Source of the DNA: Alphaproteobacteria bacterium
Lineage (GTDB): Bacteria; Pseudomonadota; Alphaproteobacteria; MPNO01; UBA830
Direction of reading: 5' to 3'
Length of the DNA: 64,000 nucleotides
Assembly: GCA_965243135.1 (NCBI GenBank)
Contig: OZ251539.1
Span: 3,872,001 to 3,936,000, forward strand
A model generated the notes under the pieces. That model saw only the letters and a program-made list of their open reading frames with translations, had not been told where the DNA came from and did no database searches. How positions within the stretch are numbered: position 1 is the stretch's first letter; each line of letters opens with the position of its first letter. This document shows, in pieces, positions 30,628 through 36,722 of this stretch. A program made the position numbers and the translations under genes.

Positions 30628-31164
30628 ATGTCGTCACTGGAACTCAACAAGATCGCCGGAGCGATAATTCTCGCGACCCTTATCGTGTTCTCGATCGGCA
30701 AGATCGGCGACAATCTCGTGGCCCCCGGCGGCGGGCATGCGCCCGTCGCCGCCGTCAAGGCGACGCCCGAGCCGGCGGTCCGGCCTTCGGCCCCGAAAGC
30801 GCCGGAGGTGCCGTTCGCCACCCTCCTCGCCAATGCCGATCCGGCGCGCGGCAAGAAGGTCTTCAACAAGTGCAAGGCCTGCCATACGGTGACCGACGGC
30901 GGAAAGGACGGAATCGGCCCCAATCTCTGGAACGTGATCAATGCGGAACCGGCGTCCAATTCGGGGTTCAAATATTCCGCCGCCCTCGAGGGGCTGAAGG
31001 AAAAGCCGTGGACCTACGACAACCTCAACGCGTTCCTCACGAAACCGAAGAACTACGCGAAGGGCACCAAGATGACGTTCGTGGGGCTCAAGAAGCCGAC
31101 CGACCGGGCGAACGTCATCCTCTATCTGCGCAGCCTGAGCGCAACGCCAGCGCCGCTCCCTTAA
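30628..31164 (+). CDS. cycM: membrane-anchored cytochrome c (CycM/c2-like)
   Basis: N-terminal TM, CKACH heme motif, GPNLW, GTKMTF; divergent from kdsB as in alphaproteobacteria. Confidence 0.9.
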   Translation: MSSLELNKIAGAIILATLIVFSIGKIGDNLVAPGGGHAPVAAVKATPEPAVRPSAPKAPEVPFATLLANADPARGKKVFNKCKACHTVTDGGKDGIGPNLWNVINAEPASNSGFKYSAALEGLKEKPWTYDNLNAFLTKPKNYAKGTKMTFVGLKKPTDRANVILYLRSLSATPAPLP

Positions 31165-31241: not shown

Positions 31242-32402
31242 TCAGAATTCTGCGTCGTGCAGCGCGCGCCAAGACAGGAGAGTCGCCTCCGAGTGCCGCT
31301 GCAACTGATCGCCGCCATAAACTGCGACGATTGGTTGCGCAGCGAACTGCCGCCGGACACGCTGAAGGCCTTTGTACAGGCTCGATGACGGGGTTTGCGC
31401 AGCCTTGATCTCGACGAGCGTATCGCCGGACGGGCCGGAGACGACGAGGTCAACCTCGGCTCCGCCGCGGTCACGATAGAAAAACAGGCCGCCCGTTTCT
31501 CCTCTGTTGCTCCGTTGCTTTGCGATTTCCGAAACCACCCAGGTTTCGAAAATCGGACCGCGAAGCGGATGCGTGCGCAGCTGATCGGACGTGCGAATGC
31601 CCACGAGCCAGCAAACGAGGCCGGTGTCGTAGAAATGCAGCTTGGGCATCTTCACGAGGCGCTTCCGAAAGTTCGCGCGATACGCGGGCAGGCGGAAAAC
31701 GACGAAGCTGGCCTCGAGCAGGCTGATCCAAGCTTTCGCGGTGGGCTGCGAAATGCCGCAATCGCCAGCCAGCGAGGAGTAGTTCAGCAACTGCGCCGTA
31801 CGTCCGGCGCACAGTTCCACGAATCGCTGGAAGAGCGCGAGATCTCCGATATTGCTGAGCGCTCGCACGTCGCGCTCGATGTAGGTGGCGACATAGGAGC
31901 GGAGCCAGTCGGCCGGATCGAGGCCGCGATCGAATATGGCGGGATAGGCGCCAGTGAACAGAGCTTCTTCGAGACCCTCGGGATACCGGCTGAAACGCTC
32001 GGTCTCCCGGCGCGTAAGCGGAAGCAGGCGATGCATTGCGGTTCGGCCGGCGAGAGACTGGGCGACCGATTCCAAAAGAGAAAGATTTTGCGAGCCGGTG
32101 AGAATCCATCGCCCGGGTTCCGGCTTGTCGTCGATGACGCCTTGCAAATAGGAAAGCAGTTCCGGCGCGTGCTGCACCTCGTCGATAACGGCCCCGTTCG
32201 GGAACCCGTCCAGAAACGCGCGCGGATCCTCCGTCGCGAATGCGCGCGTATCGAGCGCTTCGAGGGTCACGTACGGGCGCCCTGCGAACGCGGTTCGGCA
32301 AAGGGTCGTCTTGCCGCTTTGCCGCGGCCCGGTAAGGGTGATGGACGGCCATTTCCGGGCAGCCTTCGTCAATACAGCAGCAAGGTCGCGTTCGATTATC
32401 AT
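31242..32402 (-). CDS. AAA_14 ATPase / DUF4143 protein
   Basis: GPRQSGKTT, IDEVQ, QSLAGR, YIERDV, KMPKLHFYDTGL, EVDL...VEIK; start MIIERDL. Confidence 0.92.
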   Translation of the reverse strand: MIIERDLAAVLTKAARKWPSITLTGPRQSGKTTLCRTAFAGRPYVTLEALDTRAFATEDPRAFLDGFPNGAVIDEVQHAPELLSYLQGVIDDKPEPGRWILTGSQNLSLLESVAQSLAGRTAMHRLLPLTRRETERFSRYPEGLEEALFTGAYPAIFDRGLDPADWLRSYVATYIERDVRALSNIGDLALFQRFVELCAGRTAQLLNYSSLAGDCGISQPTAKAWISLLEASFVVFRLPAYRANFRKRLVKMPKLHFYDTGLVCWLVGIRTSDQLRTHPLRGPIFETWVVSEIAKQRSNRGETGGLFFYRDRGGAEVDLVVSGPSGDTLVEIKAAQTPSSSLYKGLQRVRRQFAAQPIVAVYGGDQLQRHSEATLLSWRALHDAEF

Positions 32403-32418
32403 GTTCCGAAGGATATCC

Positions 32419-32465
32419 GAAAATTGCGCTAATTCAAATTCCAATTTTGAATTAGCGCAATTTTC
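32419..32465. promoter_or_regulatory. perfect 20-bp inverted repeat upstream of AAA_14-DUF4143 gene
   Basis: GAAAATTGCGCTAATTCAAA-N7-TTTGAATTAGCGCAATTTTC, 16 bp upstream of the start codon. Confidence 0.7.
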
Positions 32466-32573
32466 CGGCGGCGGAAACGCTGCGCTGGTTGCTTCCTCCT
32501 TGCCAATCCCGGCCTTGCCGAGAGACCGCCCGGAAACGTTCACGTCCGGGCAACCTCGGAAACCGGCGCTTCG

Positions 32574-32881
32574 GGCGCGCGGCACAAGGGTCTTCAACAA
32601 GTGCAAGACCTGCCATACGGTGACCGATGGCGGAAAGAACGGAATCGGTCCCAATCTCTGGAACGTGGTCAATGCGGAACCGGCATCCAGACCGGCATTC
32701 AAGCATTCCGCGGCTCTTCAAGGGCTGAAGGGAAAACCGTGAACCTACGACAACCTCAACGCGTTCCTCACGAAGCCGAAGAACTACGCGAAGGGCACCC
32801 AGATGACTTTCGCGGGGATCAAGAAGCCGGCCGACAGAGTGGGCATTTTTTCTATCGGCGCAGCCTGAGCGCGACGCCAGC
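32574..32881 (+). pseudogene. diverged duplicate of cycM 3' part (direct repeat of 30843-31151)
   Basis: RVFNKCKTCHTVTDGGKNGIGPNLW; TGG>TGA nonsense near 32740; no start or TM segment. Confidence 0.9.
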
Positions 32882-32970: not shown

Positions 32971-33588
32971 TTACGGCGCGGCGCGGCGGATGGCCCTCCG
33001 CAGGGAAACGCATGTAGCGGCGCGCTCGGCGCCTATCCGTTCCACCACCCATTGGACGTGCCAAGGTAAAACGCTCATGCGAGCGCACTGCAGGCTATTG
33101 AAGACGGCGTCGGCCAGTCCGTCGCGGCCGAGGACGGCTTCGACGTTCGGGTGCGCCAAAAAATCGATCGTGCATCCGATTACCAATCCTTGAAAGCGCT
33201 CAGCGCATATTCGATGGGCCTTGCGTTCGTCGATCAAAGCCGCTCCGGATCGTCCCAACGCAACTGCTATAGTTGCTGCCTCGCCATCGTCGAGAGTTTC
33301 CGGCGCGGGGCCATTCACAAGACTTGTGAAATGCTGAAGTTCAATATCCGTAAGCGTCACGATATCGACCGCTCCACTTTCGGAAAGCGCAAAGAGCGCA
33401 TCGGCGTCGGATCGACCCGACGCTTTGCCTTCTGCAAGCTCCGACGCCACCTTCTCCGTAACTAAAACGGATTGCGGTAACGCGTCCAAGATTGCCCGAA
33501 CGCAGCCGGTCGCATTCAAATTAATGATGACGCTTGCATCCGCAACGACCGGCACGGAAACGTCATCGAACGATGCGCAGCATACCAT
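32971..33588 (-). CDS. PIN-domain (VapC-like) putative RNase
   Basis: Acidic tetrad pattern VADASVIINL / VASEL / LDDGEAATIA / LIDERKA; start likely MVCC at 33588, overlapping upstream gene. Confidence 0.78.
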   Translation of the reverse strand: MVCCASFDDVSVPVVADASVIINLNATGCVRAILDALPQSVLVTEKVASELAEGKASGRSDADALFALSESGAVDIVTLTDIELQHFTSLVNGPAPETLDDGEAATIAVALGRSGAALIDERKAHRICAERFQGLVIGCTIDFLAHPNVEAVLGRDGLADAVFNSLQCARMSVLPWHVQWVVERIGAERAATCVSLRRAIRRAAP

Positions 33589-34732
33589 TCGTTTCGTCTT
33601 TTTCTGCATCCGCATCGTCCAGTATTTCCCGCAACCCTATCCTGTCTACGCGCAAAAGACGGGCAAGTTGCCCCTCGCTGAGCAAATCCTTTCTCCACGC
33701 TTCCGCAGCCAGCGAATGCAGTCGGAATTCCGTCACCGGCTTCGCGTCCAAGGCAGCGAAAGCGCGATCACCAAGAGCCTGCCGCGCCTGCTCGTCGGTA
33801 ATTCCATCGTTAGCCTTGAACCAGTCCCACGCGCCGCGTTTGACGATGCCGATTTCTTCCAGCCGCCGGACCATTGCTTCACGAGAAACGCCGAAGCGGT
33901 AAGCCAGCAAGATGACGTGCCGCCTAGTCAAGACATCGGCTCCCGTGGTGATCTCCCGAAATAAATCAGTTACCGTACGCATTGGAGTCAAGAACGCTCT
34001 TGCAAAAACATTCGCGTAGCGTTCCTCGCGTGAAACGTCAAATTCCTCCGGCCCGAAGACGTCCGGTTTCCGACGCGACGAAACGAGATGTCCAAGCTCA
34101 TGTGCAGCGGTGAAAGTGCGTCGCGCCGGTGGATGTTTGACGTTGAAAAGCATGCATCCTCCTACATGGTCGTCATAGGCGAACAAGCCGGATATGCTGG
34201 AATCGAGAGGCCTGATATAGACACGAACTCCGAGTTCCAATTCCAGCAAACTTACCAAATCACGAACGGGGGCGCTTCCCAATCCGAGCCTTTGCCTGAG
34301 TTCGATCGCGTCGTTTTCCGCCTGAATGCGCACGTCCCCCGACATGAGAGGCCTTTCGGGCGGAAGATTGCGAGTTCTTTCGATGCCTAGAAGGTTCTCC
34401 AGTTCAACCTCCGCCCTGACGAGGTCGTTCAAAATCCGCGCAGCTTCCTCAGTCGGCTGTCGCGTTTTTCCGGGAAAGCTTCGGAAACGCGGCAAGAGAT
34501 CAACATGTACCGCCTCCTCGCGCAGCAATGCATTGGCAGAAGTGCCGTACAAGCGAGCGAGACGCGAAAGTTCCGTCGTCTGTATGCGCCGCTTGCCTTG
34601 CTCTATGGCGATCAGCGTCGTGCGCGTGATTCCGATATGATCTGCGGCCTTTGCCTGCGTTATGCCGTGCGCTTCACGGGCTGTACGCAAGCGCGAGCCA
34701 ACCTCGGCAATTTGGATTCTCTCCGATGCCAT
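33563..34732 (-). CDS. XRE HTH - ImmA/IrrE (M78) metallopeptidase fusion
   Basis: N-terminal HTH (ITQAKAADHIGITRTTLIAIEQG), FTAAHELGHL HExxH, EERYANVFA; C-terminal HTH-like LSEGQLARLL. Confidence 0.92.
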   Translation of the reverse strand: MASERIQIAEVGSRLRTAREAHGITQAKAADHIGITRTTLIAIEQGKRRIQTTELSRLARLYGTSANALLREEAVHVDLLPRFRSFPGKTRQPTEEAARILNDLVRAEVELENLLGIERTRNLPPERPLMSGDVRIQAENDAIELRQRLGLGSAPVRDLVSLLELELGVRVYIRPLDSSISGLFAYDDHVGGCMLFNVKHPPARRTFTAAHELGHLVSSRRKPDVFGPEEFDVSREERYANVFARAFLTPMRTVTDLFREITTGADVLTRRHVILLAYRFGVSREAMVRRLEEIGIVKRGAWDWFKANDGITDEQARQALGDRAFAALDAKPVTEFRLHSLAAEAWRKDLLSEGQLARLLRVDRIGLREILDDADAEKDETNGMLRIVR

Positions 34733-34733
34733 G

Positions 34734-36110
34734 TCACCGGCTCCCCTTGGCCCATTGATTTATGAACGATACAGATCCAAGAGATTCAACAAAACCGTTC
34801 CATTCCTCGCCATGCTGTCGGAGCATTCTTAAAAGCCTTCGGCGAGTTTCGACAGTGTCTAGATCGAAAAATTGACTTAGAAAAAACTCTTCATTTTTTA
34901 ATGAGGGCAACTCCTCAAAGCACTCGGACAGTTCGGCAATATGTTGAAGATGAAGTACGCCCGCAATTGCATATTCGTAAAGTGCGCCTTTAGGCTGTCT
35001 TCTTTTAAACGTCGAGGCCGCACCATCCTCGTATCGCGGTGCATTCAGATCCTCCCAAACGTACGCCTCCTTATTCTCCGATTGACCCGCCGCATAAACG
35101 CTCATCCGTCGAAGAAGGCACGCCGCACAAATACCGCACTGTCGCCGACGGCCGGAAACCGACACCTGTCTCGAATCTTGCCAGCATGACCGCGTCTTCC
35201 TCCATGACGGTTCGTCAACGAATTCGTTCAGATAGGCTCCTAGAGTCTCACCCTTGGTATGCCAAATACGCGGAAAATCATAGTGAATTGGATGATCGAA
35301 AAGTGCATTAATAAATTTCTCCATAAAACCCATAAAACGAGGATGACTTCGATAATCAGGATATGCATGTCCTACTGGCACTAATGAACATCCCAATGCG
35401 CCCTGTCCGCTTTCCGGGACGATAATTTTATTGGTCTTCGATAAATAGGCCGCGATAGCGCTGAGTAAAGCAAATTTGAATCCTCGAGAACGGCCACTAA
35501 ATTCCTTACGAGAAATAGGTGCACATGACACTCGGTAAGGAAGCACTGCAAATGGTTCTTTTGATTTATTGAACTTCCCATTATTCAATCCACAGGTTTC
35601 CAGTCGAGCTAGAATGATTTTATTTTGAGATCTCCGTTGCATAAGTCTCCACACAACGTATGAATCTAGCCCATTACTGTAAGACATTACGTATTGCAAA
35701 CGATCCGGTATCGGAAAATTCCATTGCCTAGGTTGGTCCGCCTGCTTCTTTCTTTCGACGAAATCGATCTGCCATACATCACCCGTCAAGAAATTCAAGG
35801 CGTCGCGAAGCGTTTTGGAAACGCATCGATCTCTCCACAGGTCTAGGTTGTGGACGGGTACGGTCAAATAAAATCTTCTGCCCCAACCCCTTTTTGGTCT
35901 CATCTTTATATAATCGCAAAACTCTATAGCAGCTGAAACAACGAGAGCATCGTATAGTTTCGGTTCCCAATTTGCCAAACAGTATGAGACCAATCCTTTT
36001 TCATTAAACATAATATTTCTTCCGATTTCGCATTGCTGATTTTGGGTATTTTCAACAGAAAAACCCTCTTCGGTTACGTTGACGCACAGTTCAGGGAAAG
36101 AAACCATCAT
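34734..36110 (-). CDS. long-form QueC-family (QatC-like) PP-loop enzyme
   Basis: SYSNGLDS PP-loop variant, RSRGF, PESGQGAL, RSHP, TKGE, SCW...CGICAACLLRR zinc site; about 140-aa N-terminal extension. Confidence 0.85.
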   Translation of the reverse strand: MMVSFPELCVNVTEEGFSVENTQNQQCEIGRNIMFNEKGLVSYCLANWEPKLYDALVVSAAIEFCDYIKMRPKRGWGRRFYLTVPVHNLDLWRDRCVSKTLRDALNFLTGDVWQIDFVERKKQADQPRQWNFPIPDRLQYVMSYSNGLDSYVVWRLMQRRSQNKIILARLETCGLNNGKFNKSKEPFAVLPYRVSCAPISRKEFSGRSRGFKFALLSAIAAYLSKTNKIIVPESGQGALGCSLVPVGHAYPDYRSHPRFMGFMEKFINALFDHPIHYDFPRIWHTKGETLGAYLNEFVDEPSWRKTRSCWQDSRQVSVSGRRRQCGICAACLLRRMSVYAAGQSENKEAYVWEDLNAPRYEDGAASTFKRRQPKGALYEYAIAGVLHLQHIAELSECFEELPSLKNEEFFLSQFFDLDTVETRRRLLRMLRQHGEEWNGFVESLGSVSFINQWAKGSR

Positions 36111-36124
36111 TCATCCACCCTCAA

Positions 36125-36673
36125 TCATAACCTGATGCCATCGTCTATTCCGGTCATTTTATCAGACGGTCGCGATCTTCTAATCCCGGCTAAATGATTT
36201 CTCGCTATCTCGGTTATCGGTAATTTTCCACGCGCCTCTTTTAGTCGATTAATCACGCGGTCACAGCGATATGATTTTCGCAAATAGTGTTCTTCCATTT
36301 GGCGAATACTGCTTGCAAAACGGTCATAGAGCGCTTCACAAAGCGCATTTTCCACCTTTCTGTCACCTAATTTATTATCCCATAATCGAATAACATGATC
36401 GATAAATGCCGTGGCAAACGGATATCCGGCCGCTATTCCTGACTTTAAGTTTTCAATTTTTTCGATATCCCAGAGATCGAGCTGCTGATCAATCAAAAGA
36501 GATTGAATTTGCCGCAAAAGTCGATCCGGAAATTCTTCGCGTAGATCATCTTCAAGCGCATATCCACCCAGCTGGATAAGCTTTTCCATATCAGCCGCCG
36601 GGTTGTCGGCATGTTCAGCCAGTCGTTTCCATGCTTGCCTCATCGGCAGGCTTCTGTGCGGCCCGTCGCTCAT
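36125..36673 (-). CDS. hypothetical alpha-helical protein, first gene of QueC operon
   Basis: AGGAGG RBS, 182 aa, same AT-rich composition as queC-like gene, 14 nt from it. Confidence 0.8.
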   Translation of the reverse strand: MSDGPHRSLPMRQAWKRLAEHADNPAADMEKLIQLGGYALEDDLREEFPDRLLRQIQSLLIDQQLDLWDIEKIENLKSGIAAGYPFATAFIDHVIRLWDNKLGDRKVENALCEALYDRFASSIRQMEEHYLRKSYRCDRVINRLKEARGKLPITEIARNHLAGIRRSRPSDKMTGIDDGIRL

Positions 36674-36685
36674 CGCATACCTCCT

Positions 36686-36722
36686 ATGTCAACAAGTTCA
36701 GTTTTTTTTCTGACATTGTCAA
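36686..36722 (-). promoter_or_regulatory. promoter/operator of QueC operon (TGACA boxes)
   Basis: Minus strand TTGACA within palindrome TGACA-N-TGTCA (36711-36721); third box ATGTCA at 36686-36691 next to the RBS. Confidence 0.5.

What the first reader, a model, noticed from the sequence alone, without database searches (positions are those of the whole stretch)
32971..36673. Candidate new defence system: unknown protein + QatC-like QueC + HTH-ImmA/IrrE peptidase + PIN nuclease
Seen: four tightly coupled minus-strand genes (gaps 14 nt, 1 nt, 26-nt overlap), clearly more AT-rich than the host, inserted between cycM and hisN-yej. Known: QueC-family defence enzymes (QatC of QatABCD, Cap9 of type IV CBASS) attach a 7-deazaguanine base to a partner protein N-terminus. 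HTH + HExxH peptidases (CapH/CapP, RosmerTA antitoxin, IrrE) act as DNA-damage switches or antitoxins, and PIN domains are RNase toxins. Here there is no QatA ATPase, TatD, cyclase, TGT or queD/queE. Inference: a distinct architecture in which a QueC modification module is wired to a peptidase-controlled PIN effector.
Basis: partly seen in the sequence, partly recalled or inferred. Interest (0 to 1): 0.9.

Follow-up and report, generated by a model that had tools for sequence, protein, structure and literature searches.

The report
Unnamed Qat-like four-gene defence cassette
Four tightly packed genes (a small tailed helical protein, a QatC-type enzyme, a repressor-protease and a PIN nuclease) form a widespread, horizontally moving, self-regulated cassette that looks like an undescribed relative of the Qat anti-phage system, though nobody has tested what it does.

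Summary
Four intact minus-strand genes lie at 32971-36673, spaced as reported, in a low-GC islet (0.45-0.58 against about 0.66) between a cytochrome c remnant and hisN.

The four genes recur in the same order and strand in the 80 public loci examined, from several phyla: gene 1 in 79 of 80, the protease in 79 of 80, the PIN gene in 75 of 80. The enzyme also occurs on 25 plasmids. Each cassette carries its own conserved promoter-operator, TGACA-N-TGTCA plus a half-site 30-31 nt downstream.

- **Gene 2** is a divergent QatC-clade PP-loop/zinc enzyme. It scores below NCBI's QatC cut-off.
- **Gene 1** has no detectable similarity to QatB. It has a near-invariant N-terminus (M-S/T-D-G-P...L...W) and is predicted to bind gene 2 as QatB binds QatC (ipSAE 0.89, best control 0.00).
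- **Genes 3 and 4** resemble a Rosmer-type HTH/M78 antitoxin with a PIN toxin.

Neighbouring genes are often defence or mobile-element genes. No named system or paper found here covers the cassette.

Best reading: a new Qat-family variant with an explicit switch and killer. Function and chemistry are untested. This host lacks queC and queD, so deazaguanine chemistry is doubtful. Earlier reports of this scan found the same cassette at least six times.

The parts
36680..36722 (-). Cassette promoter-operator. It has a TTGACA -35 hexamer overlapped by the palindrome TGACA-A-TGTCA (36711-36721), a TGACA half-site 30 nt downstream (36687-36691), and an AGGAGG ribosome-binding site (36680-36685) 6 nt before the ATG.
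   Evidence: Sequence read. The strict palindrome TGACANTGTCA occurs in 58 of 77 upstream regions. A relaxed form occurs in 75 of 77, and 73 of 77 also have a downstream half-site, 71 of them at 30-31 nt. Only 61 strict matches exist in all 1.13 Mb of loci, and only 1 in the 64-kb window. In the window copy the -10 is weak (GAACTT), and the consensus promoter scan did not flag it.
36125..36673 (-). Gene 1: a 182-aa all-helical protein with a conserved N-terminal tail (MSDGPHRSLPM...W15). It is the predicted partner and substrate of the QatC-like enzyme, a QatB analogue with no detectable homology to QatB.
   Evidence: ORF. No family hit. The family has 998 cluster representatives at E<=0.001. 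Of the best 150, 128 start M-[S/T]-D-G-P. G4, L9, W15, H129 and G179 are invariant in 78 sequences. AlphaFold pLDDT is 88.2, with nine helices. The complex prediction with gene 2 gave ipSAE 0.89 against a best control of 0.00. hhalign against QatB gave probability 1.3%.
34734..36110 (-). Gene 2: a 458-aa QatC-clade QueC-family PP-loop ATP-pyrophosphatase with a zinc site and QatC-type N- and C-terminal extensions. It belongs to a divergent subfamily.
   Evidence: PADLOC QatC 2.9e-30. NCBIfam QatC 122.8 bits, below the cut-off of 280. Solved QatC 9vlk_A 2.4e-10 and 9zee_B 6.9e-10. In 77 sequences S145 is >=90% conserved; G147, D149 and S150 (an SxGxDS loop) and C309, C325, C328 and C331 are invariant. 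QueC TIGR00364 scores 19.8 bits against a cut-off of 150.3.
33563..34732 (-). Gene 3: a 389-aa fusion of an XRE-type HTH (about residues 11-75), an M78/ImmA-IrrE zinc peptidase (166-292; HExxH at H211, E212, H215) and a conserved C-terminal helical domain (about 300-389). It is the probable autorepressor and antitoxin.
   Evidence: Pfam Peptidase_M78 8.4e-19 and HTH_3 1.4e-12. PADLOC RmrA 1.6e-30 and capP 7.3e-15. NCBIfam spr1629 repressor/antitoxin 1.2e-13, below cut-off. H211, E212 and H215 are >=95% conserved in 78 sequences. The closest solved chains are 9vzy_A at 1.3e-6 and CapP 7t5t_A at 5.3e-4.
32971..33588 (-). Gene 4: a PIN-fold nuclease with a roughly 60-aa C-terminal helical extension. 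It is 205 aa from the conserved Met at 33588; the first in-frame ATG is at 33615. It is the probable toxin or effector.
   Evidence: PADLOC PDC-S70 1.3e-11. AlphaFold pLDDT 93.2. The top Foldseek matches are PIN/VapC chains, E 3.9e-3 to 5e-2, probability 1.00, TM on target 0.51-0.71 among the first ten. The acidic residues D26, E59, D110/E112, D129 and D151 (first-ATG numbering) are >=95% conserved in 76 sequences. Pfam PIN matches only 9 of 71 members at E<=1, and not the window copy.

Best explanation
This is a self-contained, horizontally transferred four-gene operon that is a variant of the Qat family of anti-phage systems.

**Proposed working, with each step marked**
1. *Repression (inferred).* Gene 3's HTH binds the conserved operator TGACA-N-TGTCA, which overlaps the -35, and the half-site three helical turns downstream. 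This keeps the operon low.
2. *Toxin held in check (inferred).* Gene 3's C-terminal domain holds the PIN nuclease (gene 4) inactive, as a Rosmer-type HTH/M78 antitoxin does.
3. *Core complex (predicted).* The QatC-like enzyme (gene 2) forms a 1:1 complex with gene 1, whose conserved N-terminal tail lies in the enzyme's cleft.
4. *Modification (inferred by analogy with QatBC and Cap9-CdnD).* The enzyme adenylates a carboxylate substrate with ATP and joins it to the N-terminal amine of gene 1. After Met removal that residue is Ser or Thr here, not Gly.
5. *Firing (inferred, the weakest step).* During infection, the modification or a change in the complex triggers the M78 peptidase to cut gene 3. 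That both de-represses the operon and frees the PIN nuclease, which degrades RNA and stops the infected cell (abortive infection or dormancy).

[quoted passage not shown] 7-carboxy-7-deazaguanine is unlikely to come from this host.
For: **Conserved as one unit**
- The genome-contig scan found 269 confirmed relatives, and the best 80 were kept. Same order and strand: gene 1 in 79 of 80, gene 3 in 79 of 80, gene 4 in 75 of 80.
- Three of the 5 PIN misses are contig ends.
- Most junctions are 1- or 4-nt overlaps.
- Pairwise-identity matrices of the four proteins over 73 cassettes correlate at Pearson 0.79-0.84 for all six pairs. The front-to-back pairs correlate as strongly as pairs within each half.
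- In a sample of 301 genomes of the phylum, the PIN subfamily scores strongly only in the two genomes that also carry the QatC-like subfamily.

**One shared promoter-operator**
- It is present in 73-75 of 77 upstream regions and almost nowhere else.

**QatC membership**
-, plus shared signature motifs. A4 invariants fit the published QatC-cluster motifs DxWxxxF, RxRxxxF, ExG, HP, P(x)4TK and CGxCxxC..RR.

**Partner binding**
- ipSAE 0.89, 0.88 and 0.90 in three runs; best of 3 controls 0.00. That mark was reached by 58 of 80 solved complexes and 2 of 110 mismatched pairs; these counts hold only roughly, because my own alignments were used. The runs agree in at least 80% of contacts, and partner pLDDT is 75-77.
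- The interface uses the enzyme loop 244-252, the C-terminal extension 373-410 and zinc-site residues 310 and 328-329, with partner residues 6-12 and 15.
- This mirrors the published QatBC interfaces (PMC13279940, results read).

**Conserved N-terminus**
- 128 of the best 150 representatives start M-[S/T]-D-G-P.

**Genes 3 and 4 as a toxin-antitoxin type**
- RmrA 1.6e-30.
- NetFlax describes ImmA-domain antitoxins, often with an N-terminal HTH, paired with PIN-like toxins (PMC10440598, passages).
- A stand-alone HTH-M78 plus PIN-like pair lies elsewhere in this genome.

**Defence and mobile context**
- The 134 nearest-neighbour ORFs include GajA-like (5), Fic/SoFic (5), AbiEi (5), mad2 (5), phage integrases (5), HipA (3), type I RM, RES and OLD-TOPRIM proteins.
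- The enzyme gene is on 25 plasmids, 14 of them conjugative.
- The cassette is patchy: 4 of 78 genomes of the order, at different sites and 39-51% identity. Relatives have an empty site.
Against: - No experiment exists. Defence is inferred from relatives and neighbours only.
- The link between the front pair and the back pair rests on co-inheritance. No tool result shows that gene 1 or gene 2 acts on gene 3.
- Gene 1 shows no sequence, profile or fold similarity to QatB. Its N-terminal residue after Met removal is Ser or Thr, whereas the Gly2 of QatB is essential (PMC13279940).
- The two threonines that are invariant and essential in QatC are not conserved here.
- NCBIfam's QatC equivalog cut-off is missed by a wide margin: 122.8 bits against 280.
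- The complex prediction may lean on solved QatBC structures on the enzyme side.
- The host (98.8% complete, one contig) has no canonical QueC above cut-off and no QueD/PTPS. Of 46 other cassette-bearing genomes, 13 lack a PTPS hit. A host-made 7-deazaguanine substrate is therefore not generally available.
- QatBC alone suffices for defence in the canonical system, so the back pair need not be the effector.
- The neighbour survey has no matched control.
Confidence: 0.55

Rival explanations
1. Two independent modules travel together. The front pair (gene 1 plus the QatC-like enzyme) is a complete QatBC-type defence unit. The back pair (HTH-M78 plus PIN) is an ordinary toxin-antitoxin addiction or regulatory module that stabilises and regulates the cassette, and is not its effector.
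For: - QatB and QatC alone protect against some phages in the canonical system (PMC13279940).
- HTH-M78 plus PIN-like pairs exist on their own, including one elsewhere in this genome: gene 3 is 29% identical over its full length to that pair's HTH-M78.
- One locus (L027) keeps the front pair without genes 3 and 4, and one (L022) lacks the PIN gene.
- The window copy has a GC step of 0.11 between the front and back halves. That is larger than in any of 73 other cassettes, where the maximum is 0.088.
Against: - Genes 2 and 3 overlap by 1-4 nt in most loci.
- A single conserved promoter-operator sits upstream of gene 1.
- The PIN subfamily was found strongly only alongside the QatC-like subfamily, in 2 of 2 genomes among the 301 sampled.
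- Front-to-back identity correlations are as high as those within each pair.
- Only 2 of 77 assessable loci have lost the PIN gene.
Confidence: 0.22
2. It is not an anti-phage system. The cassette is a mobile-element maintenance or competition device (plasmid addiction, exclusion of incoming DNA) or a DNA-damage or stress switch. In that reading the QatC-like enzyme modifies gene 1 for a regulatory purpose.
For: - The enzyme gene is on 25 plasmids, 14 of them predicted conjugative.
- Neighbours include integrases, IS66 transposases and ArdC.
- Zinc-peptidase switches related to gene 3 include CapP (PADLOC capP 7.3e-15; 7t5t_A), and the ImmA peptidase cleaves the ImmR repressor of a conjugative transposon (PMC10440598). 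That such switches respond to DNA damage is recalled.
- No copy was found in 50,697 phage records.
Against: - The closest characterised relatives of three of the four genes are defence proteins or defence candidates: QatC, RmrA and PDC-S70.
- Defence genes recur among the nearest neighbours.
- Addiction alone would not need the strictly conserved enzyme pair.
Confidence: 0.15
3. Gene 2 is a metabolic 7-deazaguanine enzyme, as public annotation says ('7-cyano-7-deazaguanine synthase'), and the cluster serves queuosine or deazapurine metabolism.
For: - RefSeq plasmid records name it so.
- There is a weak Pfam QueC hit of 25.9 bits over the C-terminal part.
- A Y-x-D-Y-R motif resembles the canonical Y-P-D-C-R.
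Against: - TIGR00364 (QueC) scores 19.8 bits against a cut-off of 150.3.
- The protein carries the QatC-type extensions and motifs.
- The host has no queD, so there is no pathway to serve.
- The partner genes are a repressor-protease and a nuclease, not biosynthetic genes.
- Canonical QatC itself cannot replace QueC (PMC13329287).
Confidence: 0.03

Closest known systems
QatABCD anti-phage system, specifically its minimal QatB-QatC core (system attributed to Gao et al. 2020 from memory; structures 9vlk, 9zee; PMC13279940, PMC13376578, PMC13639016)
   Same: - Gene 2 is a QatC-clade enzyme with the same N- and C-terminal extensions, an SxGxDS loop, a four-cysteine zinc site and most cluster-specific motifs.
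- It is encoded just downstream of a small all-helical protein with a conserved N-terminal tail.
- That protein is predicted to bind through the same enzyme surfaces: the active-site loop, the C-terminal extension and the tail in the cleft (compare).
   Different: - There is no QatA KAP NTPase and no QatD TatD nuclease.
- The partner is not homologous to QatB by PADLOC, hhalign or fold search. It is about 189 aa, against 246-296 aa in the six QatB read here.
- Its tail is short and starts M-S-D-G-P rather than MGTS.
- QatC's invariant Thr-x-Thr is replaced.
- The enzyme scores 112-121 bits on NCBI's QatC model, against 297-425 bits for six canonical QatC.
- Two extra genes, a repressor-protease and a PIN nuclease, are fixed parts of the operon.
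RosmerTA and related ImmA/M78-antitoxin toxin-antitoxin defence pairs (preprint 10.1101/2022.05.11.491447, by Millman et al. as recalled; NetFlax node D25, PMC10440598)
   Same: Gene 3 is an HTH plus M78 zinc-peptidase protein that matches RmrA models (best 1.6e-30). It is followed by an overlapping gene for a likely toxin. NetFlax reports ImmA-type antitoxins paired with PIN-like toxins.
   Different: - Here the pair is never the whole unit. It is welded to the QatBC-like pair behind a shared operator.
- The toxin is a dedicated PIN subfamily with a C-terminal helical extension.
- Neither neutralisation nor toxicity has been tested.
Type IV CBASS Cap9-CdnD deazaguanylation and the CapH/CapP switch (10.1101/2025.04.06.647259; CapP 7t5t)
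   Same: - A QueC-family enzyme acts on the N-terminal tail of a partner protein.
- An HTH repressor plus an M78 peptidase controls a defence operon. Gene 3 hits capP at 7.3e-15 and capH at 3.2e-5.
   Different: - There is no CD-NTase, no Cap10/TGT and no cyclic-nucleotide effector.
- Cap9 is a minimal QueC of about 185 aa that keeps the canonical active site, whereas gene 2 is QatC-like.
- The HTH and the peptidase are one polypeptide here.
PADLOC candidate PDC-S70 (single-gene PIN nuclease defence candidate, unvalidated; PMC12988326)
   Same: Gene 4 matches PDC-S70 models at 1.3e-11 and has a PIN fold.
   Different: PDC-S70 is defined as a single gene. Here the PIN gene is the fourth gene of a fixed operon.

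Membership tests
QatABCD system | QatC: a QueC-family enzyme with QatC-specific N- and C-terminal extensions, an SxGxDS PP-loop and a four-cysteine zinc site | tested here: met
   PADLOC QatC 2.9e-30 over residues 53-361. phmmer to solved QatC 9vlk_A 2.4e-10. In 77 sequences S145 is >=90% conserved; G147, D149, S150 and C309, C325, C328, C331 are invariant. The motifs DxWxxxF, RxRxxxF, ExG, HP and P(x)4TK are shared with the published QatC cluster.
QatABCD system | QatC equivalog score (NCBIfam NF041925, cut-off 280 bits) | tested here: not met
   122.8 bits. In 301 genomes, six canonical QatC score 297-425 bits, while this subfamily scores 112-121 bits.
QatABCD system | QatC's invariant, essential threonines (T278 and T280 in P. 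aeruginosa) in the substrate pocket | tested here: not met
   Canonical copies have S-T-R-T-T-H-P. This family has Y-x-D-Y-R-x-H-P, with D252 and R254 invariant. Which residues are structurally equivalent is ambiguous between the phmmer and MAFFT alignments.
QatABCD system | QatB: a helical protein with an MGTS N-terminus, plus the Pro16 and Trp18 motif | tested here: not met
   Six canonical QatB taken here all start MGTS. Gene 1 starts MSDGP, and 128 of the best 150 relatives start M-[S/T]-D-G-P. PADLOC QatB hits: 0 of 78 members. hhalign probability 1.3%.
QatABCD system | A 1:1 QatB-QatC complex with the partner's N-terminal tail in the active site | tested here: inconclusive
   Prediction only. 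ipSAE 0.89 against a best control of 0.00; that mark was reached by 58 of 80 solved complexes and 2 of 110 mismatched pairs, roughly. Partner residues 6-12 and 15 touch the enzyme near zinc-site residues 310 and 328-329. No binding experiment exists.
QatABCD system | A QatA KAP-family NTPase and a QatD TatD nuclease in the operon | tested here: not met
   The cassette has four genes, none of which matches QatA or QatD. The nearby DUF4143 ATPase matches PDC-S01, not QatA, and is found in only 2 of 80 loci. By contrast, the six canonical loci each have a further ORF directly downstream of QatC, at the place of qatD (not scanned for TatD here).
RosmerTA-type toxin-antitoxin defence | An antitoxin with an M78/ImmA zinc-peptidase domain (often with an N-terminal HTH) and an intact HExxH | tested here: met
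   RmrA models, best 1.6e-30. Peptidase_M78 8.4e-19 and HTH_3 1.4e-12. H211, E212 and H215 are >=95% conserved.
RosmerTA-type toxin-antitoxin defence | The adjacent gene is a toxin that the antitoxin neutralises | not testable with these tools
   Gene 4 overlaps gene 3 and has a PIN fold with conserved acidic residues. Toxicity and rescue need experiments.
PIN-domain nucleases (VapC-like) | A PIN fold with the conserved acidic active-site residues | tested here: met
   The top Foldseek hits are PIN/VapC chains: probability 1.00, TM on target up to 0.71, E 3.9e-3 at best. D26, E59, D110/E112 and D129 are >=95% conserved.
PIN-domain nucleases (VapC-like) | Pfam PIN family score | tested here: inconclusive
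   PF01850 matches 9 of 71 members at E<=1, best 0.0019. The window copy has no Pfam hit.
Canonical QueC (preQ0 synthase) | TIGR00364 equivalog score and the catalytic motifs YxQxHxxE, VPxRN and YPDC | tested here: not met
   19.8 bits against a cut-off of 150.3. Only a Y-x-D-Y-R stretch resembles YPDC-R. The other two motifs were not seen in the alignment.
Type IV CBASS | A CD-NTase, a Cap9 minimal QueC and a Cap10 TGT-like protein in the operon | tested here: not met
   None of the four genes matches them. The only TGT in the genome is the housekeeping one at G000:C1:3863864-3864928, outside the cassette.

The most novel reading that the evidence does not exclude
The cassette is a metabolite-sensing immune switch. 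The QatC-like ligase joins a carboxylate that is absent from uninfected cells to the N-terminal Ser/Thr-Asp-Gly-Pro tail of gene 1. A candidate is a 7-deazaguanine precursor made by phages that modify their own DNA; that such phages exist is recalled, from no call. This idea arises because this host and 13 of 46 other carriers lack queD. The tagged protein would then be the ligand that fires the M78 peptidase, which destroys the repressor-antitoxin and frees the PIN nuclease. That would be a direct, protein-borne link from a phage metabolite to a toxin-antitoxin effector. It would also name the long-sought first substrate and downstream step of Qat-type systems.
Probability: 0.1. Interest if true: 0.9.

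Novelty: new variant of a known kind. Interest (0 to 1): 0.7.

Why it matters
How QatBC-type systems stop phages is an open question. The published structures leave both the enzyme's first substrate and the step after QatB modification unknown (PMC13279940, PMC13376578). QatA and QatD are dispensable for some phages.

This cassette pairs a QatC-clade enzyme with parts whose jobs can be read: an autorepressor-protease with a defined operator, and a PIN nuclease. It also has a different partner tail (Ser/Thr-Asp-Gly-Pro instead of Gly-Thr-Ser). It therefore offers a second, more tractable model for what QueC-family protein modification does in immunity.

It shows that the QatC clade has at least two non-homologous substrate proteins. 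It also corrects a widespread mis-annotation ('7-cyano-7-deazaguanine synthase').

The partner family has 998 cluster representatives, and the cassette spreads on conjugative plasmids, so it is not a curiosity of one genome.

Tried and rejected
- **Fold of gene 1.** Foldseek against the PDB gave nothing (best E 0.19). VIA-align against 48,161 chains gave a best Z of 6.4 on helical bundles, which is within noise for helical proteins. I could not tell whether QatB chains are in those fold libraries, so this does not exclude a shared fold.
- **Homology of gene 1 to QatB.** PADLOC gave 0 of 78 members. hhalign against six QatB gave probability 1.3%. phmmer against the PDB gave nothing below E 0.5.
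- **ESM Atlas for gene 1.** Best score 0.85, a lead only.
- **Does the family keep the ancestral QueC Tyr/Asp substrate readers?** The Y-x-D-Y-R motif looks like the canonical Y-P-D-C-R. But phmmer and MAFFT place it differently relative to QatC and QueC, so I make no claim.
- **The duplicated cycM 3' end as an integration scar.** Rejected. Five relatives have an intact second cytochrome c gene in tandem between cycM and hisN, so the window copy at 32464-32850 is a remnant of that paralogue.
- **DUF4143 ATPase as a QatA stand-in.** Rejected. It occurs in 2 of 80 loci and matches PDC-S01.
- **Consensus promoter scan.** It did not flag the cassette promoter in the window.
- **Phage records.** No match for gene 2.
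- **RNA evidence.** No RNA holder was listed.
- **Contigs laid on the window.** They show only that a roughly 96%-identical copy sits at the same locus in another data set.
- **Earlier findings.** Look-ups by place and by sequence gave nothing.
- **Supplements.** Supplementary tables of PMC13329287 (neighbourhoods of the QatC cluster, only about 34% of which sit beside qatA or qatD) and of the Qat structure papers could not be read. They may already list this neighbourhood.

Full report
**1.

One search lists four intact minus-strand ORFs:
- 36125-36673 (182 aa)
- 34734-36110 (458 aa)
- 33563-34732 (389 aa)
- 32971-33615 (214 aa from the first ATG)

The first two spacings are 14 nt and 1 nt. 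The last junction overlaps by 53 nt from the first ATG. It overlaps by 26 nt from the Met at 33588, which the family conserves.

GC drops to 0.41-0.58 across the genes, against 0.65-0.70 around them. Per gene it is 0.457, 0.450, 0.563 and 0.584, with flanks at 0.666 and 0.656.

The flanking genes are prephenate dehydratase, kdsB and a cytochrome c on one side. On the other side are an inositol-monophosphatase-family (hisN-like) gene and family-5 solute-binding proteins.

**2. What each gene is**

*Gene 2.* It matches PADLOC QatC at 2.9e-30. It also matches solved QatC chains 9vlk_A (2.4e-10) and 9zee_B (6.9e-10). However:
- It reaches only 122.8 bits on NCBI's QatC equivalog model, whose cut-off is 280.
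- It reaches only 19.8 bits on the QueC model, whose cut-off is 150.3.

In 77 family members the PP-loop S145-x-G147-x-D149-S150 is conserved. So are the zinc cysteines C309, C325, C328 and C331, and D54, D111-x-W113-xxx-F117, R207-x-R209-xxx-F213, E233-x-G235, H256-P257 and P280-x4-T285-K286. These fit the motif list published for the QatC cluster (PMC13329287, section read).

The two threonines that are invariant and essential in QatC (PMC13279940) are not kept. Canonical copies read S-T-R-T-T-H-P, and this family reads Y-x-D-Y-R-x-H-P.

In a sample of 301 genomes of the phylum, six canonical QatC score 297-425 bits. This subfamily scores 120.7 bits (own genome) and 112.1 bits (G342). Gene 2 is therefore a distinct subfamily within the QatC clade.

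*Gene 3.* It is a fusion of three parts:
- an XRE-type HTH
- an M78/ImmA-IrrE zinc peptidase, with H211, E212 and H215 conserved
- a conserved C-terminal domain

Its best matches are RmrA of RosmerTA (1.6e-30) and CapP (7.3e-15). The closest solved chains are 9vzy_A (1.3e-6) and CapP 7t5t_A.

*Gene 4.* It has no Pfam hit, but it matches the PADLOC candidate PDC-S70 at 1.3e-11. Its AlphaFold model (pLDDT 93.2) matches PIN/VapC structures first (probability 1.00, TM on target up to 0.71). The acidic residues D26, E59, D110/E112 and D129 are conserved.

*Gene 1.* It matches nothing in Pfam, PADLOC, NCBIfam or the PDB by sequence.

**3. The four genes are one conserved unit**

Gene 2 has a large family of full-length relatives: 2745 proteins at E<=1e-5 among 8000 scored candidates.

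A scan of one genome per species found 269 confirmed relatives, and the best 80 loci were kept. They come from Acidobacteriota, Alpha-, Beta- and Gammaproteobacteria, Binatia, Chloroflexota and other groups.

tblastn of the window's proteins against the 80 loci:

| Gene | Loci with a match |
|---|---|
| Gene 1 | 79 of 80 |
| Gene 3 | 79 of 80 |
| Gene 4 | 75 of 80 |
| DUF4143 ATPase next door | 2 of 80 |

Order and strand are always the same, and lengths are about 189, 458, 392 and 215 aa. Most junctions overlap by 1 or 4 nt.

The exceptions:
- Three loci are cut by contig ends (L011, L030, L073).
- L022 lacks the PIN gene.
- L027 lacks genes 3 and 4.
- L069 is decayed.
- L025 and L060 have gene 1 in two pieces.
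- L016 is intact, with an extra gene 3-4 copy upstream.

Pairwise-identity matrices of the four proteins over 73 cassettes correlate at Pearson 0.79-0.84 for all six pairs. Front-to-back pairs correlate no worse than pairs within a half. The sequences are related to each other, so this is descriptive and not a formal test.

In the 301-genome sample, the PIN subfamily scores strongly only in the own genome and in G342. These are the same two genomes that hold the QatC-like subfamily, and in G342 the two genes are adjacent.

**4. A conserved promoter-operator**

Upstream of gene 1 the window reads TTGACAATGTCAG...(17 nt)...TTGACATAGGAGG...ATG. Counts:
- The palindrome TGACA-N-TGTCA, which overlaps the -35, occurs in strict form in 58 of 77 upstream regions and in relaxed form in 75 of 77.
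- A TGACA-type half-site follows in 73 of 77, at 30-31 nt in 71 of them, just before the ribosome-binding site.
- Only 61 strict matches exist in all 1.13 Mb of fetched loci, and only one in the 64-kb window.

Such conservation across phyla points to autoregulation by the cassette's own HTH protein. That is an inference; no binding was tested.

**5. Gene 1 as a QatB stand-in**

The gene 1 family has 998 cluster representatives at E<=0.001 (745 at 1e-10, 356 at 1e-30) among 1.84 billion proteins.

Of the best 150, 128 begin M-[S/T]-D-G-P: 124 with MSDGP and 4 with MTDGP. Most of the rest look like mis-called starts. G4, L9 and W15 are invariant in 78 sequences. The model is all-helical (pLDDT 88.2).

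Six canonical QatB, taken here from loci beside true QatC, all begin MGTS followed by a P-x-W motif. This matches what the papers report.

No homology between gene 1 and QatB is detectable:
- PADLOC gave 0 of 78 members.
- hhalign gave probability 1.3%.
- Fold searches gave nothing above noise.

Yet the complex prediction of gene 2 with gene 1 scored ipSAE 0.89, 0.88 and 0.90, against 0.00 for the best of three controls.
- That mark was reached by 58 of 80 solved complexes and 2 of 110 mismatched pairs. These counts hold only roughly, because my own alignments were used.
- The runs agree in at least 80% of contacts, and partner pLDDT is 75-77.
- The interface uses the enzyme loop 244-252, the C-terminal extension 373-410 and residues beside the zinc site (310, 328-329).
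- It also uses partner residues 6-12 and 15, plus helices 77-138.

These are the same three kinds of contact described for QatBC. Because QatBC structures are solved, the enzyme side may be remembered by the model. The partner side cannot be explained by sequence likeness.

**6. Genes 3 and 4 as a toxin-antitoxin type**

ImmA/M78-domain antitoxins, often with an N-terminal HTH, are the antitoxins of RosmerTA. NetFlax found them paired with PIN-like toxins (PMC10440598, passages; preprint 10.1101/2022.05.11.491447, passages).

Elsewhere in this genome there is a stand-alone pair. It consists of a 420-aa HTH-M78 protein, 29% identical to gene 3 over its full length, followed by a 172-aa distant PIN-like protein. 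The back half of the cassette is therefore a specialised member of a known module class.

**7. Mobility and context**

Several relatives keep cycM and hisN adjacent (G349, G355, G361, G363). Others keep them separated only by a second, intact cytochrome c gene (G352, G353, G354, G356, G358).

The window's cycM-hisN gap therefore holds three things:
- an inserted DUF4143 ATPase (PADLOC PDC-S01, 3.8e-104)
- a remnant of the second cytochrome c gene, at 32464-32850 with an in-frame stop
- the four-gene cassette

The QatC-like gene occurs in 4 of 78 genomes of the order, at other sites and at 39-51% identity.

It is on 25 plasmid records: 14 conjugative, 6 mobilizable and 5 non-mobilizable. It is absent from 50,697 phage records. 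In RefSeq the four genes are called hypothetical protein, 7-cyano-7-deazaguanine synthase, XRE family transcriptional regulator and hypothetical protein.

Among the 134 nearest-neighbour ORFs of the cassettes are five each of GajA-like, Fic/SoFic, AbiEi and mad2 proteins and phage integrases. HipA, type I RM subunits, RES, OLD-TOPRIM, ArdC and IS66 transposases also appear. That survey has no matched control.

**8. Chemistry**

The host genome is one contig and 98.8% complete.
- It has a TGT gene.
- It has no canonical QueC above cut-off.
- It has no QueD/PTPS.
- Of 46 other cassette-bearing genomes, 13 have no PTPS hit. Several of these are metagenome bins, so absence is not proven for them.

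A host-made 7-carboxy-7-deazaguanine, the Cap9 substrate, is therefore not generally at hand. For QatC itself the first substrate is unidentified.

I take the reaction to be ATP-dependent ligation of some carboxylate to the partner's N-terminal amine. After Met removal that residue would be Ser or Thr. This is analogy, not a result.

**9. Comparison and novelty**

- The cassette works like QatBC joined to a Rosmer-type toxin-antitoxin pair.
- It fails the QatABCD membership tests for QatA, QatB, QatD, the Thr-x-Thr pocket and the equivalog score.
- It passes at the level of the QatC clade.
- PADLOC v2 and NCBIfam name single genes only.

Literature searches found no description of this architecture. 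Neither did word searches for peptidase, HTH, PIN and the like in the QueC family survey and in two of the three QatBC structure papers; the third was read in its results and discussion. Supplementary tables could not be read.

Earlier reports of this scan describe the same cassette in at least six other genomes, with the same reading. They are not independent evidence, but they show that the cassette recurs. I rate it a new variant of a known kind.

**10. Verdict**

The feature is real, conserved and unnamed. Defence is the best reading (0.55 for the integrated model). The main rival is two co-travelling modules (0.22). Function, substrate and the link between the two halves all need experiments.

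Noticed in passing
window 31242-32702 (-), probable start near 32430: A DUF4143/AAA_14 ATPase (Pfam 6.6e-49 and 2.1e-22; PADLOC candidate PDC-S01 3.8e-104) is inserted between cycM and the cytochrome c remnant. It is a second, separate insertion and not part of the cassette (2 of 80 loci). The cycM-hisN gap therefore acts as a small hotspot for defence-type cargo.
   Followed up: partly
window 32464-32850 (+), with DNA repeats 30840-31151 / 32571-32881: A partial second cytochrome c gene, 88% identical in DNA to the 3' part of cycM and carrying an in-frame TGA. Five relatives have an intact tandem second cytochrome c here, so this is a decayed paralogue and not an integration duplication.
   Followed up: partly
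window 32419-32438 / 32446-32465: A perfect 20-nt inverted repeat with a 7-nt spacer, right at the 5' end of the DUF4143 ATPase gene. It may be an operator or a terminator.
   Followed up: no
L148:1387-3176 (own genome G000:C1, about 3.5425-3.5442 Mb, outside the window): A stand-alone two-gene pair. It consists of a 420-aa HTH plus Peptidase_M78 protein, 29% identical to gene 3 over its full length, followed by a 172-aa distant relative of the cassette's PIN protein (48 bits to the family profile).
   Followed up: partly
window 32971-36673: The window's cassette has a GC step between its front pair (0.45-0.46) and its back pair (0.56-0.58). The gene 3 minus gene 2 difference of 0.113 exceeds that of all 73 other cassettes (mean 0.015, maximum 0.088). 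This may mean a recombinant origin or uneven amelioration.
   Followed up: partly
whole genome G000: The host has a TGT gene (3863864-3864928, just upstream of the window) but no canonical QueC above cut-off and no QueD/PTPS. It probably depends on salvage for queuosine.
   Followed up: partly
L016:3510-5289: This locus has an intact cassette plus a second copy of genes 3 and 4 about 3.5 kb upstream of gene 1.
   Followed up: no
L063 and L064: Two metagenome bins with very different labels (Babeliales and Acetobacteraceae) give identical tblastn figures for all four genes. This suggests the same sequence was binned twice, or mis-binned.
   Followed up: no
window 32984-36582 and flanks: A contig from a separate data set (run X6) covers the cassette with 147 differences in 3599 bases. 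Other contigs of that run cover both flanks, so a related strain carries the cassette at the same locus.
   Followed up: partly
window 36692-36716: In the window copy the -10 region of the cassette promoter is weak (GAACTT), whereas many other loci have TATAAT-like hexamers there.
   Followed up: no
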